Part shown: piece after piece, positions 6,001 to 21,000 of the stretch
How positions within the stretch are numbered: position 1 is the first letter of the stretch
Layout: each line of letters opens with the position of its first letter
DNA from: Phallusia mammillata
Lineage: Eukaryota
Assembly (NCBI GenBank): GCA_965637545.1
Contig: OZ281499.1
Location: forward strand, 434,001 to 498,000
DNA: 64,000 nucleotides
Direction: 5' to 3'
Made by a program: the position numbers

Positions 6001-9000
6001 AATGAAATTTGCGATGTTATGCACAAAAAAAAGTTGAGAGTAAAACACGTAAAAGAGAAATGCAACAAAGAAAAACAAAAATAGCAAAACATGGTTCATG
6101 GTAGGTTCCTAAACTTTAAACCGTGTTTTTATAATCACAAATATTCCATTAACCACGACGAACCTGTAGCTTGGCTTCCTCCATCCGCTTCCAACAAAAC
6201 GTGCTTTTAACGTCGCAAATCAAATCAGTTTGCCTTTTATATCAACTTCAGCGCCCCTGCAAGGCAGCTTTGGAATCCCGATCTTTCTGCCTGTGGAGTT
6301 TTCGGGCAACGATTACTTAATCACTTTACTGCGCGTTTTTGCCGAATAATCGCCCCCTCAGGGACACAACAACTCTTGGTTTACAAACAGTGGAAAGAAG
6401 TGAATCAAACCTTAACTTGTGTCAGGTGATGTCACATAAACATAATTAGGACGGACTTGATTCGTGTGATGCACATCAAATCTGTTTTAGCAATTGTCGT
6501 TGTTTATAGCTCAGTAAAACGTATTTACTACAACAGTTCTTCCCAACCTTTACAAGCTCGAGGCCATTAAAGAACTAAGAAATGAAAGTCTTGTATACTT
6601 TGTTTGTAGCAACTTTAATAAAACATGTTTTTAGTATAATTTCTCTGCGTTTTTGTTACTTTCAACTATTTTCTGGTTTGTTTATCTTTTGTTTGTTTCA
6701 TTACCTTCATGCACTTTGTTTCTACTTTAAGTTGAAGTATTTTACCCTTGGCACTTTGTGTTCACGTTCGCGCACCACACTTTGTTTCCGTTACTTCCCC
6801 TGTCGTTACCCACTGCAAGCATTACAGCTACAATTTCTTATTACCAACCAAAAGATGGTGTTAGGATCAAACTAATTAATCACGTTGCCTTTCGTCATCG
6901 ATCACATCGCCTTTGGGGGACCGCGGTCCGCGATGGTCACGTGCTAATCTATCCCACGTGATTTCACTTCATACAAACAGTCAGACAACTTTTTAAGGGC
7001 ATTTTTGTAACATTAAACGCTTTGCTTGTTACGTTTGCGTAGAGTTCCAATCCAAAAGTTCCCAAAACAAAAACCAAGCCAACATTTCGGTCAATCACTT
7101 GAATTCATTTGACCAAACGGTCACAACTTTCCTCAGATTCTGATAAACATCGGTGTTTTAGTGTCACAACTGTTTGTACATACCTTGTCATTTTGTTGTC
7201 GGTTTTTATGCAGGTTGTGTGCAACCAATCAATTGTGAATAGAAAGTGAAATTACGGCTCAAACTTGGTAAAGTTTAAACTTCTAGACTGGTTTCAAAAA
7301 AGCCCAAATAGTCTGCCTCGACGTAGAGCGCTAAACTAGCATTTTTATTTTAATATTTTTTGAGTTTACTGCGCCAAACTTTCCGAGGTGTGCTTTACCG
7401 CATTGTATGATTGTTTCAAAACAAGGTTATTGTGAAAATTAAACAACGCGTTTAAACACCTGCCTCCAATCCGGGATTTGGTAAATGAACAGCAACGGTA
7501 AATGCCACAACGATAAATGCCAGTTCCCAGCAGTCACATAACTTAGTAACAAAATTTTGCAAAAAAAAACCATGTATTTGACCCCAAGTTTTACACAAAA
7601 TAGCAAAAATGATCAAAGAACCACCTAATTGCGAAATATTCGCAAGCAACTGAAACAGAAAATCATAATAAATATGTACAAGCCGCACAAGGTATGGTTT
7701 GTGCGGTTTAGCCGCTTGTCAATCATGTGTGTCGCTTGTCGTTTAATTGTCAGAGGGCGGCTTCAGCCACAACTGCCACGTTAACTCGTCGGTTGTCATG
7801 TGGCTGTTGACGCTGTCGAACGTCATGTAAACGCTTCCGAACTCGATCGTAGAGCATTTTCGGGGCGTTGGAGTAGATGAGAGGGTTGAGAGAGCTGTTG
7901 ATGGGAAGCAGGATTATTGCTGACACTGCGTAAATCACTGGAGGTACAGTTGCTCCACCGAAGTTCAGGAAAGCCATGATTGAGATAGGCACCCAGCAGA
8001 AGAAATCAGTAAAGACCAGCCGGATGATTTTCTTTTGCATTTCTGCAACAAACACCAGAAGTTAGGAGCAAATTTAAGTTGCGCTTATCAGATTTACCTT
8101 GGTTCTGCTTTTCAGCTCTCGCATTTCGGGCCGTCTCATTCACTTGCCTGCCACTGGCAGTCGACCTCTTGTAAATCCAAACGTATGCCACAGCAACAAA
8201 CATAAAAGCCACAAGGTTAAGAGTGATGATGGCAAGTGAAAATGGCCAAGCCTTGTCGGTCGGTGTCACGTAAAGTTTACTGATGCAAACACTGTTGGTG
8301 CTGTAGTACCTGAGAAAAACATTCAGTTACAGCAACAACTATTATAATCTCATTTGCTTGCAACTACATACCCCAAATATCCTGTAATGTCAAACAGTTC
8401 AGTGTAGTGATAATCTTCAAGAATATCCACAAAATCCGCCCATGAATAAACATTTTGTACCCTTAGAAGTGCGCCATCGAGTGTCTGGGAATCGTTGATG
8501 GTAAAATTGTGTCGAAACTTTACAAACCGTTTCATGAAAGTGTCCATGCCTGCACGAAAGCACACGATGGATAAAACGGTTAAATATACACATGTGTTAC
8601 AATTGCTCACTTGAAAAGTCAACGACATGACTTTTAAAGAACGGATTTTCTTTCATCCACGCTTTGGTTTCAAACAAATGTTGAAATTGAGACGTGAGAG
8701 GAATAAAAGCCAGTGTGAAGGAAATTGTCCAAGATAAGATGATGGTAAGGATAATAATCTTCAGTTTGGGGAAATATGGCGCATTAAACGGCTGCAAAAC
8801 ATTAGTGGCTTGCTGCAAACACCAGAGCACACATACATTAAAAAATACTCACGTTTTTTACAGCGTAAAGTCGAAATGCTGTCAGCAGGACCATTGTAAT
8901 TACTGATGTTTCGCTAGAAAGCAAAACCAAAATGCCCATTGAATTGCAGGCCCGACTTGACCTCCAAACAAGGTCGTTGGCACAGTAGTTTCCAGAATAT

Positions 9001-18000: not shown

Positions 18001-21000
18001 AGGATCGCGTTTTTAAATCGTCAAGCTGTTAAAGCAGTTCAACAGAAGGTTTTTAGAAACTCTTGTTAAAAAAATTACTTTGTTGCCACGATTGTTTATT
18101 CCCCCAAAAAAGTAAACCTACCGACGATAATCTTGAAAACTTTTGTCACTTATTTCGGGGACTTTCCCAGTACAATTGCATTCGTCGCTCATATCAGGAC
18201 AATCAATGACGTCATTACACACACTTGACCTTGAAATGATCATGGAGTCGTTTCTGCACTGGAAGCACAATTGATTGTTGAACGAGGCTTTGGAGGAACG
18301 ACGGGTGTCCCTGAAAACGAAATAAAGGTCATTACTAAACTTATCACATCACCACAGATTGACCAAAAAACGCGTAAAATGATTTTTTACATGTTGCATT
18401 GTAAAAACGTTGCACGCCAAAAATCTAATAATTGCAAGTGTTGTTTCCTTTTTAGGCATAACGGAAGAGTGTACGCTTGCATTAGCTTTACCAAAACTTT
18501 TGTGTCGCTTCGTTATCACTTTCTTTCACATTATAACCTGGCAGTCCATATATTGTATTTAATTTACCAGTTCAGTTTATCGTAAGTTGTTTTGTGTGCT
18601 TATTTGCCCAAAACGTGTTTATCTTAATTTCACGATGTGTCTTTAACGTTTCTCACGTTAGTCCTTCTTCACATCTTTTCGTTACGTTCATTACCTTGAG
18701 TGTTTAATTGCTTTCTAAAACATTGTTTTCCACCTTAAGTGAATTTATTCCCCGGCATACTTTGCGCTCAATACAGCACCTTCACATCCCCTGTCGTTGC
18801 CTTACGCAGCATTTCAGCTACAACTTCTAATGTAACCAACTAAAGTAAGCCAGGCGATGATAATTGACCAGTGGGTTTCGACCACGTGACTCGTTAGTTT
18901 CCTATTAGTTTTGTCGCGAGTCTTTTTTGTTTGTTTTCAAGTCCTTTTGCGGGCCACGTGCTGTTAGGAGAAGTTCTTCCCCGGCTGTTAACTGTCTTAA
19001 AATTTGTGCAGTGACTTTGCCAAAATCTTACAGTTTTATTCCGTGTTTTTACACAAGGAAAGCAGTGCTCGAACGCGTCTTAACTAGGATTATTCATGGC
19101 TAGCCGTGAGTGCATTTTACGAAGGCTTTTGGCAACCAGCTGATGTATAAAGAACAACCGACCTAAAAACATATACATACCTCACATCGCCATTTTCGGG
19201 CGTGTAGCATAAGTCAGAGCCATTATCGCAATCTAGTACGCGGTCCCACAAGAACATTTGCGGGAGTAAGCACGTCCGGTTGTTCTTGACACATTTGAAG
19301 CCGTATCCGTTACTCCAATGTTGAAAGGCAGGACAGTCATTACAGAGATCGCCATCACACACAGTTGAACGCTTCCAACAAGTCGAATCCGGACACCGAA
19401 AGTGGGAGGGGCAAACGTCACAAGGTGTTTTATTCCGACACGAGATGTCACCCTTGCAATATTCGTGCCTCCGTAGCGCACAAACTTTACGTATTGGCGT
19501 ATAGTCGTGTATGTTGTCGCAGCTGTGAAAGTGGAATCATTATATTTTTACTATTATAATCACAGATCAAAGTGTAATAAACAACCAACATTATGGAATT
19601 CGAATGCGCGTGTTGTTGCTGGCGTTTACCCAGCACCCATCAGGGTATTTCCCATGGAAACGACCTAAAGTGGAGTATCTTTATACGGGAAATGTTTCAT
19701 CAACAAAGTAGTAAACGACAAATCAACACAACGCGTTAAATAGATAAGACTGGAGTGAAGAAAAATGTTGTTGCGATAAAAAATGTTCCTGGCGTTTTTA
19801 TAAAATTTTATTTAGTATTTATTTCTGCACTGTCAAGCACTTGAAGTGGCAAATAGAGTAAATAATCACATAAACGTCATTTGATAACCGACAAAGTTCA
19901 CCTGATATAGCTGGATGATAGGTTAGCAGGGTAGGTGGGAAATGTGACCCGTTTCTCGTCGCTTCCGTCTCCGCAGTCAGGATAATTATCGCAAAAGTAA
20001 CTTGAGTAAACTCTTCTCCCACCATCGCAAGTAAAATCTGCATTCAACAATCACAAACATATAATTGTTGGTCGTTTGATATTTGCGTCAAAGTGACAGT
20101 TGACGAATCCGCTACAACTGGACTATTTAAAAGCACAGCAGAAATATAAACATTACCCTTTAAAATTTAAAAGTTTAATTAAAGTTTTAATCATATAACT
20201 TAATGTACTGTCACTAAATAAACGTAGTATTACAAAAAGCGGTAGTTTGCTGTTTAATAATCAAGCATTTAAATTTACTCCCTGCTTGGCATGGAGCCGG
20301 TGCGATGAACCAAATCAAGGTTGCAGCGAAAATCATTACGATGAGATCTCTGAAAACACAACAGCGGCGTTGTTACATGAGTGACAAACTTGAACCTGCG
20401 TCTTCCCTGAGCGTGTTCTCATAATATACTTTACATGTCAGATAATTTGCTTACCTTTTCACGAAGTGGTGCATCATTCTTCCTGAATCTCTTACGCTAA
20501 GTTTTTTCAATAAACAATCAAAATTTTGCAAGTTTTTATATTGTGTATTATTTGAACAAAGTAAAAAAATTAACCGCAGGCTGCTTACTAAACCCGATAT
20601 ACTTAATTTCTATACCTCTGCGGTCAGAATGGTTTCCAAACGTATTTTCCGCTTTCAGCAAACCAGGCAGATGATTGTCACTTCCCAAGCCCCGCACGTC
20701 AGCAAGACTTCCTGTTACGGAAAATAAAATTGTTTTTATTATTTGTTCCGCTGTTTTCAGTCGCGAAATTACACAAATTAGTTTATGTGCACAAAATATT
20801 TACGCAAAAATGTCTCGAACTGACATTTATCACAATATAAAATTACCATGAATTCCGATAATGATGATGTTAATTGACGTTTCCTCAATTATTGCATAGG
20901 AAAAATTCCGATTTCATTATGGGTCGTTTAATTTAAACGCATGTGTTTACAATGGAACATTGATATAAAAATGCTCGTACGATGTTGTACGATGACCATG

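What the first reader, a model, noticed from the sequence alone, without database searches (positions are those of the whole stretch)
7750..20477. Intact LRR-less LDLa-GPCR with a very long second extracellular loop
Seen: a signal peptide and ~600 aa of Cys-rich/LDLa modules join directly to a relaxin-receptor-like 7TM, with no leucine-rich repeats. About 100 aa spanning three exons separate TM4 (SFTLAFIP) from YYSTNSVC. Known: RXFP1/2 and GRL101 have LRRs between LDLa and 7TM, while LRR-less LDLa-GPCRs were noted as an orphan group in Ciona. Inference: the ligand is recognised by LDLa modules and the enlarged ECL2, in a functionally uncharacterised receptor class.
Basis: partly seen in the sequence, partly recalled or inferred. 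Interest (0 to 1): 0.65.

Follow-up and report, generated by a model that had tools for sequence, protein, structure and literature searches.

The report
LDLa-repeat GPCR lacking leucine-rich repeats
This is an apparently intact gene for a cell-surface receptor that joins a long chain of LDL-receptor-type modules directly to a relaxin-receptor-like membrane core; the family was described in sea squirts in 2008, and its unusually long outer loop rests on a predicted, unconfirmed exon.

Summary
The gene is real and lies on the minus strand from ATG 20477 to TGA 7750. I found one fully open, phase-consistent model: 16 exons, all GT-AG, 1098 codons.

- **LDLa modules:** exon-by-exon searches find LDLa modules.
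- **Membrane core:** it is of the LGR type. The TM6-7 exon is closest to human RXFP1, E 4e-11.
- **No LRRs:** no leucine-rich repeats were found. The last LDLa half-module and TM1 share one exon, so no LRR or hinge can sit between them.

This architecture is not new. Kamesh et al. 2008 described 14 such LDLRR-GPCRs in Ciona.

The long ECL2 is the less secure part. The best realistic splice path puts 88 residues where RXFP1 has 8. It beats a 12-residue alternative only narrowly. The extra coding sequence has intron-like composition.

The LGR-wide ECL2 motif C-Phi-P-Phi reads C-I-S-K here.

Not done:
- Structure prediction, homologue searches and paper supplements, which were unavailable.

Verdict: a member of a known orphan family, possibly with a new loop variant. 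Interest is moderate to low.

The parts
20455..20477 (-). Exon e0: start codon and the charged start of the signal peptide (7 codons plus 2 bases).
   Evidence: First in-frame ATG after an upstream stop. The donor is AAG|gtaagc and the following intron is 105 nt.
20279..20349 (-). Exon e1: hydrophobic core of the signal peptide and the first Cys. An alternative start ATG lies at 20336.
   Evidence: The acceptor is ttgtgttttcag|A and the split codon reads AGA. The donor is phase 1.
19902..20037 (-). Exon e2: LDLa module 1.
   Evidence: Pfam Ldl_recept_a E 1e-8, 35.7 bits against a cut-off of 24.1. Contains the acidic cage CGDGSDE.
19181..19522 (-). Exon e3: Cys-rich block with 15 Cys, probably two degenerate LDLa modules after a Cys-rich lead. 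It is a paralogue of e5.
   Evidence: No Pfam hit. 48% identical to e5 over 127 aa. The e3/e5 profile has a single PDB hit, LDLR LA3-4 (2fcw_B), at a non-significant E of 1.7, but the match spans both sub-modules.
18122..18310 (-). Exon e4: LDLa module. It is a paralogue of e6.
   Evidence: Pfam Ldl_recept_a E 9.2e-5, 23.0 bits, just under the cut-off. dN/dS against e6 is about 0.11.
11878..12264 (-). Exon e5: Cys-rich block with 17 Cys, a duplicate of e3.
   Evidence: Against e3, pN is 0.29 and pS is 0.81, so synonymous sites are saturated. hhalign against the window's own LDLa profile gives probability 24%, E 8e-4, for residues 96-115.
11634..11810 (-). Exon e6: LDLa module, a duplicate of e4.
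   Evidence: Pfam Ldl_recept_a E 0.0011. 71% identical to e4 over 52 aa.
11190..11355 (-). Exon e7: unclassified stretch with 4 Cys. Its boundaries are the least certain in the model: the acceptor is weak, there is an alternative donor at 11262, and an in-frame skip to 10032 is possible.
   Evidence: It lies in a 101-codon open frame. It has the lowest acceptor score of the gene, 4.0. There is no LDLa similarity and no PDB hit.
9699..10046 (-). Exon e8: two LDLa acidic cages, plus the C-terminal half of a further module.
   Evidence: Pfam Ldl_recept_a E 2.4e-13, 2 stretches. The best PDB hits are VLDLR and LDLR modules, best E 7.3e-5.
9472..9603 (-). Exon e9: the C-terminal half of an LDLa module and the start of the next one. 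There is an alternative donor at 9487.
   Evidence: Pfam Ldl_recept_a E 0.024. Contains the cage CDDESDE.
9244..9408 (-). Exon e10: the last LDLa half-module, a linker of about 21 residues, and TM1 (about 9300-9244).
   Evidence: hhalign of residues 3-15 against the LDLa profile gives probability 71%, E 3.8e-5. A hydrophobic segment is present. There is no PDB hit at E<=10.
8853..9149 (-). Exon e11: end of TM1, TM2 (9077-9021), ECL1 with the TM3 Cys, and TM3 (8939-8883). TM3 ends in F-R-L where class A receptors usually have D/E-R-Y.
   Evidence: Best PDB hits: nematode LGR 8w1z 2.7e-9, LHCGR 8.1e-9, TSHR 1.5e-8, RXFP1 9.3e-8. Pfam 7tm_1 E 0.0088.
8611..8791 (-). Exon e12: ICL2, TM4 (8758-8702), and a 28-codon extension (8695-8612) that forms the first part of the long ECL2. 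There is an alternative acceptor at 8812.
   Evidence: The weak alignment to RXFP1 516-549 (E 9.4) is collinear and ends in the shared AFIPL. The donor is CAA|gtgagc, 12 nt before the frame's stop.
8372..8549 (-). Exon e13: a predicted 58-codon insert in ECL2. It has no Cys and no hydrophobic segment, and it carries two N-x-S/T sites.
   Evidence: It is flanked by introns of 61 and 62 nt. Its donor is the best GT site in 8700-8312, and its acceptor is the second-best AG site. It has no Pfam hit and no PDB hit. Coding status is not shown.
8098..8309 (-). Exon e14: the conserved part of ECL2 (YYSTNSVC followed by ISK), TM5 (8236-8180) and ICL3.
   Evidence: The only PDB match is TSHR at E 0.014, aligned at the ECL2 Cys and TM5. 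The spacing from YY to the Cys equals that of RXFP1 Y556-C563.
7750..8042 (-). Exon e15: TM6 with C-W-x-P (8028-7972), TM7 with N-P-x-x-Y (7956-7900), a tail of about 35 residues, and the stop codon TGA.
   Evidence: PDB: RXFP1 7tmw E 4.2e-11 (46.2 bits); the next hit is FSHR at 3.8e-4. Pfam 7tm_1 E 0.0015.

Best explanation
**What it is.** This is an intact protein-coding gene for a class A GPCR of the LGR/relaxin-receptor branch. Its ectodomain is a chain of about a dozen LDLa-derived modules, seven of them with a canonical x-S-D-E acidic cage. It has no leucine-rich repeats and no hinge. This makes it a member of the LDLRR-GPCR family described in Ciona. The identity is shown, at about 0.85.

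**The loop.** In the most likely transcript, about 80 extra residues are inserted in ECL2 just before the conserved YY-x-T-x-x-x-C segment. This is inferred from splice geometry, at about 0.55-0.6.

**How it probably works.** This is inference by analogy, at about 0.25.
- The acidic, calcium-binding LDLa cages capture a basic surface on a protein or lipoprotein ligand.
- The membrane-proximal LDLa half sits only about 21 residues from TM1, so it is held at the mouth of the 7TM bundle.
- In RXFP1 the LDLa module and its linker act on ECL2, while the LRR and hinge keep the receptor off.
- Here, with LRR and hinge absent and the pocket-filling C-Phi-P-Phi motif changed to C-I-S-K, the ECL2 insert would take over the role of lid or docking surface. 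Ligand-induced rearrangement of the LDLa chain would act through it on TM5-TM7.
- G-protein coupling was not assessed.

The overall confidence given (0.6) is for identity plus the long loop taken together.
For: **The gene model is sound**
- It is open and phase-consistent across 16 exons.

**The duplicated modules are under purifying selection**
- e4/e6 have dN/dS of about 0.11.
- e3/e5 have pN 0.29 against a saturated pS of 0.81.

**LDLa modules are present**
- Pfam hits LDLa in 5 of 10 N-terminal exon ORFs.
- e8 matches VLDLR and LDLR modules.

**The 7TM is of the LGR type**
- All 18 hits with E<1e-4 for the TM2-3 exon are LGR-family receptors. The next hit, NPFF2, has E 0.32.
- The TM6-7 exon matches RXFP1 at 4.2e-11, about 22 bits above the next receptor.
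- The landmark motifs G-N, L-S-I-S-D, the TM3 Cys, C-W-V-P and N-P-L-I-Y can be read directly.

**No LRR**
- Searches found none.
- The last LDLa half and TM1 are in one exon.

**Fit to the published family**
- It matches the Kamesh 2008 description.

**Evidence for the insert**
- Introns of 61 and 62 nt flank e13, matching the 55-63-nt introns elsewhere in the 7TM part.
- The donor at 8372 is the best GT in the interval, in the top 1.4% of 831 GT sites.
- The acceptor at 8549 is the second-best AG.
- Only one frame is open across e13.
- The insert carries two N-glycosylation sequons and no TM-like segment, so the membrane topology is preserved.

**Evidence for the mechanism (published work on RXFP1)**
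- ECL2 occupies the orthosteric pocket, LRR and hinge autoinhibit, and the 7TM alone has 70% basal activity (preprint 10.1101/2022.01.22.477343, passages).
- LDLa is required for activation (preprint 10.64898/2026.06.10.731386, passages).
Against: **No direct confirmation**
- No transcript, orthologue or paralogue was available to confirm any exon.

**Weak or missing exon-level matches**
- Pfam 7tm_1 scores per exon (16 and 18.5 bits) are below the 30.5-bit cut-off. Fragments are expected to score low, and I did not score the joined protein.
- e14 matches TSHR only weakly (E 0.014) and does not match RXFP1.
- e10 has no PDB hit, and e12 has no significant LGR hit.

**Against the insert**
- The codon-usage score of e13 is not above that of stop-free non-coding windows: 34% of 384 windows score at least as high.
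- GC and GC3 of e12b and e13 (0.35/0.38 and 0.36/0.40) look like non-coding DNA (0.36), not like most other exons.
- 52 of 1543 non-coding ORFs in the locus reach 58 codons.
- A single-intron path (8661 to 8309) gives a 12-residue pre-YY segment, close to the 8 of RXFP1. Its mean site score is 6.94 against 7.23.
- There is no amphipathic-helix signal above shuffles.

**Against the mechanism**
- Nothing here tests binding or signalling.
- The loss of the acidic residue before the TM3 Arg (F-R-L) and of C-Phi-P-Phi could also mean relaxed constraint.
Confidence: 0.6

Rival explanations
1. The gene and family are the same, but the long ECL2 is a gene-prediction artefact or a minor isoform. The main mRNA would splice from a donor soon after TM4 (for example 8661) straight to the acceptor at 8309, giving an ECL2 of ordinary LGR length.
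For: - The 8661-to-8309 path is open and in frame. It leaves 12 residues before YY, against 8 in RXFP1, and its mean site score is 6.94, only 0.3 below the long path.
- Donor 8661 scores 4.6 against 5.0 for donor 8611 in the within-gene matrix.
- e12b and e13 have intron-like GC and GC3, and their codon usage is uninformative.
- e13 has no Pfam or PDB relatives.
Against: - Donor 8661 (GC|gtggat) departs from the general GTRAGT consensus at +4 and +5, whereas 8611 (AA|gtgagc) fits it at +1 to +5. The consensus is recalled; the bases were read.
- The best donor of the whole interval (8372) would go unused.
- Two introns of 61 and 62 nt match the modal intron size of this gene.
- The frame of e13 is open for 100 codons, and the e12 frame stays open exactly up to the consensus donor.
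Confidence: 0.3
2. The locus is not one functional gene. Either it is an unexpressed or decaying copy, or the 5' block (e0-e4) and the rest (e5-e15) belong to different transcription units, separated by the 5.9-kb repeat-filled intron.
For: - Intron 4 is 5857 nt long and carries inverted repeat arrays that suggest a mobile-element insertion.
- The D/E-R-Y acidic residue and the LGR ECL2 motif are lost.
- No expression data were available.
Against: - All 16 exons are open with matching phases.
- e5 has no start codon or signal peptide of its own in its open frame.
- The duplicated e3e4/e5e6 units share the same 2-2 phase class and show strong purifying selection.
- The core class A motifs are intact.
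Confidence: 0.07
3. LRR exons exist but were missed, because single-LRR exons are only about 24 codons long or lie outside the interval examined. The receptor would then be an ordinary GRL101-type LGR.
For: - Short exons escape ORF lists.
- GRL101-type receptors combine many LDLa modules with LRRs.
Against: - A motif scan of all three minus-strand frames over 7000-22000 found no usable strict match and no excess of relaxed matches: 10, against 9 on the other strand and 7.5+/-2.6 in shuffles.
- The last LDLa half and TM1 are in one exon, so the position that LRR and hinge occupy in every known LGR is closed.
- A plus-strand PGM1 gene at 24298 bounds the locus upstream.
Confidence: 0.03

Closest known systems
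Ciona LDLRR-GPCRs (Kamesh, Aradhyam & Manoj 2008, PMC2396169)
   Same: - Tandem LDL-A repeats at the N-terminus and no LRR.
- TM region most like the INSL3/relaxin receptors.
- Orphan status.
   Different: - I could not show that the window comes from Ciona, nor that this gene is one of the 14 listed. The sequences and domain drawings are in supplements I could not open.
- That paper does not mention ECL2: 'ECL2' and 'EL2' each occur 0 times, and none of the 12 of 27 passages I was shown for the loop and EST search terms concerned this family.
RXFP1/RXFP2 (type C1 LGRs)
   Same: - Best PDB match for TM6-7.
- TM4 ends in the shared AFIPL.
- The ECL2 segment YY-x-T-x-x-x-C has the same spacing as Y556-C563.
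- LDLa is present.
   Different: - RXFP1 has one LDLa, a 32-residue linker, LRRs and a hinge. Here there are about 12 LDLa-type modules, no LRR and no hinge.
- C-F-P-L reads C-I-S-K here.
- ECL2 is about 107 residues if e13 is used, against 25 in RXFP1 (E551-Q575).
- The abstract of PMC11863921 states that true RXFP/LGR3-type receptors were lost in urochordates.
GRL101-type (type C2) LGRs of molluscs, echinoderms and cnidarians
   Same: Multiple LDLa modules precede an LGR-type 7TM.
   Different: GRL101 keeps LRRs between the LDLa modules and the 7TM. None were found here.
C3a receptor, a class A GPCR with an ECL2 of about 172 residues
   Same: It is a precedent for a very long ECL2 in a class A receptor (PMC10518620, passage).
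   Different: - It belongs to an unrelated branch of class A.
- In C3aR the disulfide Cys (C172) comes early in the loop, so the long part follows the Cys. Here the insert precedes it.
- There is no sequence relation.

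Membership tests
Class A (rhodopsin-like) GPCR | Seven transmembrane segments. | tested here: met
   Seven Kyte-Doolittle hydrophobic segments were found, in e10, e11 (two), e12, e14 and e15 (two). None lies in e13.
Class A (rhodopsin-like) GPCR | The Pfam 7tm_1 profile matches above its gathering score. | tested here: inconclusive
   Scored exon by exon only. e11 gave 16.0 bits (profile positions 7-87) and e15 gave 18.5 bits (positions 203-260), against a cut-off of 30.5. The joined protein was not scored.
Class A (rhodopsin-like) GPCR | The landmark motifs: N in TM1, D in TM2, the Cys pair of TM3 and ECL2, D/E-R-Y, C-W-x-P and N-P-x-x-Y. 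The motif list is recalled from general knowledge. | tested here: met
   G-N, L-S-I-S-D, the TM3 Cys, the ECL2 Cys, C-W-V-P and N-P-L-I-Y are all present. D/E-R-Y reads F-R-L, so the Arg is kept and the acidic residue is lost (with the alignments).
LGR family (leucine-rich-repeat GPCRs) | The 7TM is closest to LGR receptors. | tested here: met
   For the TM2-3 exon, the top 18 PDB sequences are all LGR-family receptors (E 2.7e-9 to 1.3e-5), and the next hit has E 0.32. For the TM6-7 exon, the top five are RXFP1 (one sequence), FSHR (two) and LHCGR (two).
LGR family (leucine-rich-repeat GPCRs) | A leucine-rich-repeat ectodomain and a hinge precede TM1. | tested here: not met
   No LRR motif cluster was found. 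No Pfam LRR appears in exon ORFs or intron ORFs. LDLa and TM1 share one exon.
LGR family (leucine-rich-repeat GPCRs) | The ECL2 motif C-Phi-P-Phi, shared by all human LGRs. | tested here: not met
   The motif reads C-I-S-K. Only the first hydrophobic position is kept.
Ciona LDLRR-GPCR family (Kamesh 2008) | One to ten LDL-A repeats at the N-terminus. | tested here: met
   Pfam finds LDLa in 5 exon ORFs. Nine acidic-cage motifs are present. Several modules are degenerate or lack Cys positions.
Ciona LDLRR-GPCR family (Kamesh 2008) | No LRR, and a TM region similar to the INSL3/relaxin receptors. | tested here: met
   Supported for the absence of LRR. RXFP1 is the best PDB hit for TM6-7. Its bit scores over the exons that hit it are 35.2, 46.2 and 10.0, and their sum is the highest of any receptor.
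Ciona LDLRR-GPCR family (Kamesh 2008) | The gene groups with the Ciona cluster in a 7TM tree, and the organism is Ciona. | not testable with these tools
The organism was not identified by any tool.
RXFP1/2 (type C1 LGR) | A single LDLa, a linker, about 10 LRRs and a hinge. | tested here: not met
   There are many LDLa-type modules, no LRR and no hinge.
GRL101 (type C2 LGR) | Multiple LDLa modules followed by LRRs. | tested here: not met
   Multiple LDLa modules are present, but LRRs are absent.

The most novel reading that the evidence does not exclude
The roughly 80-residue ECL2 insert is a real, folded extracellular module that replaced the LRR-hinge unit as the regulator of an LGR-type 7TM. 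A receptor that by RXFP1 logic should be constitutively active (no LRR, no hinge) would be kept silent by its own enlarged loop. It would be released when the LDLa chain binds a blood-borne protein or lipoprotein. That would be a natural, LRR-free solution to LGR autoinhibition.
Probability: 0.12. Interest if true: 0.65.

Novelty: new member of a known kind. Interest (0 to 1): 0.33.

Why it matters
- **What would be interesting.** Recent RXFP1 structures place ECL2 at the centre of LGR activation and assign autoinhibition to the LRR-hinge unit. A natural relative that lacks LRR and hinge, has changed the pocket-filling ECL2 motif and may carry a large ECL2 insert would be a useful comparison. 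It could show which parts of that mechanism are essential.
- **What remains open.** The family has had no ligand since 2008.
- **Why the value is limited.** The architecture is already published, and the only new element, the long loop, is a prediction from splice sites.

Tried and rejected
**Tests that led nowhere**
- **Codon-usage likelihood for e13 and e12b**: uninformative. Even secure TM exons score near zero.
- **Hydrophobic-moment test for amphipathic helices in the insert**: not above shuffles.
- **PDB searches:**
  - e10 and e7: no hits.
  - e13: only a yeast kinetochore protein at E 0.11, taken as chance.
  - e12 ORF: the top hit was potato multicystatin (E 0.0083, summed over three repeats, each weak alone). 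It aligned to the 28-residue tail after TM4. I take it as chance but record it.
- **My guess of a THAP-type transposase ORF in intron 4:** not supported, since 0 of 10 ORFs hit Pfam.

**Literature searches**
- Three peptide motifs from the window: 0 papers.
- Ciona haemocyte GPCRs: nothing beyond Kamesh 2008.
- Ciona TACC: no help in naming the organism.
- One search was badly framed and returned only general tunicate papers.

Two accepted jobs were interrupted, so there are no models and no fold searches.
- The protein atlas did not answer or did not hold the sequences.
- Complex prediction was not used. No claim of binding between separate proteins is made.

Full report
**Scope and limits**
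I never built, searched or folded the joined protein.
- For that reason the whole-protein Pfam score, topology prediction, a full-length fold and a 7TM tree are missing.
- The protein atlas did not answer or did not hold the sequences.
- The supplements of the key paper could not be read.
- The window contains no N.
- I do not take the contig for human. No tool named the organism.
It remains an inference.

**Gene model**
- The feature lies on the minus strand. Stop-to-stop frames tile the interval.
- Reading the junctions gives one chain in which every junction is GT-AG and every phase matches.
- The exons are: e0 20477-20455, e1 20349-20279, e2 20037-19902, e3 19522-19181, e4 18310-18122, e5 12264-11878, e6 11810-11634, e7 11355-11190, e8 10046-9699, e9 9603-9472, e10 9408-9244, e11 9149-8853, e12 8791-8611, e13 8549-8372, e14 8309-8098 and e15 8042-7753. 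The stop TGA is at 7752-7750.
- That makes 3294 nt, or 1098 codons.
- The introns are 105, 241, 379, 870, 5857, 67, 278, 1143, 95, 63, 94, 61, 61, 62 and 55 nt.
- The less secure points are:
  - the 5' edge and donor of e7, which has the lowest acceptor score (4.0), an alternative donor at 11262, and an in-frame skip to 10032;
  - the donor of e9 (alternative at 9487);
  - the acceptor of e12 (alternative at 8812);
  - exon e13, treated below.

**Ectodomain**
- The N-terminus has a charged start and a hydrophobic run.
- The frames of e1-e10 hold 69 Cys and nine acidic-cage motifs, seven of them with x-S-D-E.
- Pfam Ldl_recept_a hits the ORFs of e2 (1e-8), e8 (2.4e-13, two stretches), e4 (9.2e-5), e6 (0.0011) and e9 (0.024). 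The ORFs of e1, e3, e5, e7 and e10 give no LDLa hit at E<=0.1.
- e8 matches VLDLR and LDLR modules in the PDB.
- The start of e10 matches the C-terminal half of a profile built from the window's own LDLa modules (probability 71%, E 3.8e-5).
- The large Cys-rich exons e3 and e5 are paralogues, as are e4 and e6:
  - e3/e5 are 48% identical over 127 aa, and e4/e6 are 71% identical over 52 aa.
  - They share the same phase class.
  - e4/e6 have dN/dS of about 0.11, and e3/e5 have pN 0.29 against a saturated pS of 0.81.
  - So a two-exon unit was duplicated long ago, and both copies have been kept as coding sequence.
- Whether e3 and e5 consist of two degenerate LDLa modules is suggested but not shown:
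  - The only PDB hit of their profile is LDLR LA3-4, spanning both sub-modules, at a non-significant E of 1.7.
  - hhalign against the LDLa profile gives probability 24%.
- e7 resembles nothing.

**No leucine-rich repeats**
- Single-LRR exons would be too short for ORF lists, so I scanned all three minus-strand frames over 7000-22000 with the LRR core pattern (recalled).
- There was one strict match, which contains stop codons. There were ten relaxed matches, against nine on the plus strand and 7.5+/-2.6 in 100 shuffles.
- None of 10 intronic or upstream ORFs hit any Pfam family.
- More telling, the last LDLa half and TM1 lie in the same exon, about 21 residues apart. The position that LRRs and hinge hold in every LGR is therefore closed.
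- A plus-strand phosphoglucomutase gene at 24298 limits the locus upstream.
- No second 7TM copy is in the window.

**Membrane core**
- There are seven hydrophobic segments.
- The TM2-3 exon hits only LGR-family receptors among its 18 best PDB sequences. These are nematode LGR 8w1z 2.7e-9 (identified from the search listing), LHCGR 8.1e-9, TSHR 1.5e-8, RXFP1 9.3e-8, FSHR 4.5e-7 and LGR4 about 1e-5. The next hit has E 0.32.
- The TM6-7 exon hits RXFP1 at 4.2e-11 (46.2 bits), and FSHR follows at 3.8e-4.
- The ECL2-TM5 exon hits only TSHR, at E 0.014.
- The TM4 exon aligns to RXFP1 516-549 only weakly (E 9.4). The alignment is collinear and ends in the shared AFIPL.
- 'Relaxin-receptor-like' is therefore fair for TM6-7 and for the summed score. 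TM2-3 is equally close to the glycoprotein-hormone receptors.
- The class A landmarks are present, except that the acidic residue of D/E-R-Y is Phe (F-R-L).

**The long ECL2**
- Published passages place these RXFP1 residues: ECL2 starts at K550, and it contains Y556, Y557, G558, T559, C563, F564, P565, L566 and H567. The full EL2 runs from E551 to Q575.
- The window reads YYSTNSVC with the same spacing from YY to the Cys. About 19 residues run from YY to TM5, against about 20 in RXFP1. The part of the loop after YY is therefore ordinary in length.
- The difference lies before YY. RXFP1 has 8 residues after IPL. The model has 88: 28 from the extension of e12, a split codon, 58 from e13, and another split codon.
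- Points in favour of the insert:
  - The e12 frame stays open up to a consensus donor 12 nt before its stop.
  - e13 is open in one frame only.
  - The introns on either side are 61 and 62 nt, like the others nearby.
  - Donor 8372 is the best GT site of the interval, and acceptor 8549 is the second-best AG.
  - The insert has no TM-like segment and carries two N-x-S/T sites.
- Points against the insert:
  - Its codon usage cannot be told from that of stop-free non-coding windows.
  - Its GC and GC3 are intron-like.
  - Long open frames are not rare in the repeat-rich non-coding DNA of this locus: 52 of 1543 ORFs reach 58 codons.
It follows a path with an implausible 10-nt exon (7.30) and is barely ahead of a one-intron path that leaves 12 residues (6.94).
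- I put the long form at about 0.55-0.6.

**Comparison with what is known**
- Kamesh et al. 2008 (passages and section 14 read) describe the Ciona LDLRR-GPCRs:
  - 14 confirmed members with single or 2-10 tandem LDL-A repeats;
  - no LRR;
  - TM regions like the INSL3/relaxin receptors;
  - EST hits mostly from blood cells;
  - lipoproteins or large protein complexes proposed as ligands.
- Among the 20 of 35 papers listed for 'LDLRR', only that paper uses the term LDLRR-GPCR.
- That paper does not discuss ECL2.
- The abstract of a 2025 study states that true RXFP/LGR3-type receptors were lost in urochordates.
- GRL101-type receptors keep their LRRs.
- In amphioxus, LDLa was reported in adhesion GPCRs, according to the three passages seen.
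- The known case of a very long ECL2 in class A is the C3a receptor, at about 172 residues. There the long part follows the disulfide Cys rather than preceding it.

**Likely mechanism (inference)**
- In RXFP1, ECL2 sits in the orthosteric pocket through F564 and L566. The LRR and hinge hold the receptor off, the isolated 7TM signals at 70% of maximum, and the LDLa module with its linker is needed for activation and contacts EL2.
- The present receptor lacks LRR and hinge. It fixes an LDLa half-module about 21 residues from TM1. Its C-Phi-P-Phi motif reads C-I-S-K, and in RXFP1 L566D abolishes signalling.
- I therefore expect that ECL2 does not act as the pocket plug in the RXFP1 manner.
- If the insert is real, it is the best candidate for the surface on which the LDLa chain acts, or for a lid that replaces the missing autoinhibitory unit.
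- Ligand capture by acidic LDLa cages is an analogy with LDLR-family receptors, and Kamesh et al. proposed the same. None of this was tested.

**Verdict**
- The architecture is already in print. The long loop is a plausible but unverified variant. Interest is moderate to low.

Noticed in passing
window 26990-40002, minus strand: A TACC gene. One uninterrupted 2083-codon frame (33754-40002) holds a 348-bp tandem repeat in 5.3 copies (34235-36094). That repeat encodes repeated units of about 116 residues with a conserved acidic D-D-P-N-Y/F-D-P-F motif. Downstream exons match the TACC3 Aurora-A-binding region (E 3.9e-5) and TACC_C (E 2.5e-11).
   Followed up: partly
window 24298-26007, plus strand: A complete phosphoglucomutase-1, with all four Pfam domains, encoded in a single 570-codon open frame without introns. 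Its neighbours are intron-rich, so it may be a retrogene.
   Followed up: partly
window 12359-12656 and 17716-17823 (intron 4 of the receptor gene): Inverted arrays of a unit of about 15 nt, with 94-nt arms 96% complementary, lie 5.2 kb apart. A second nested inverted pair lies at 14985-15062 and 17223-17300. This looks like one or two DNA-transposon-like insertions that account for the 5.9-kb intron. No transposase domain was found: 0 of 10 ORFs hit Pfam.
   Followed up: partly
window 10075-11021 (intron 7) and 21665-21904 (upstream of the start): A 122-bp tandem repeat in 7.8 copies (93% matches) fills most of intron 7. A 52-bp repeat in 4.7 copies lies about 1.2 kb upstream of the start codon.
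   Followed up: no
window 8612-8695, minus strand (tail of e12): The 28 residues after TM4 gave a weak summed match (E 0.0083) to a motif repeated in the three cystatin domains of potato multicystatin (PDB 4lzi). Each repeat is weak on its own, so the match is probably chance.
   Followed up: no
window 8860-8880, minus strand (end of TM3): The conserved D/E-R-Y triplet reads F-R-L. The Arg is kept but the acidic residue is replaced by Phe. In other class A receptors, loss of that residue often raises basal activity (recalled, not tested here).
   Followed up: no
window 46598-47364, minus strand: Two exons of an Arf-family small GTPase (Pfam Arf, E 1.6e-14 and 4.2e-10).
   Followed up: no
window 1-64000: There are no Rfam families at gathering score and no tRNA genes anywhere in the window.
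   Followed up: yes
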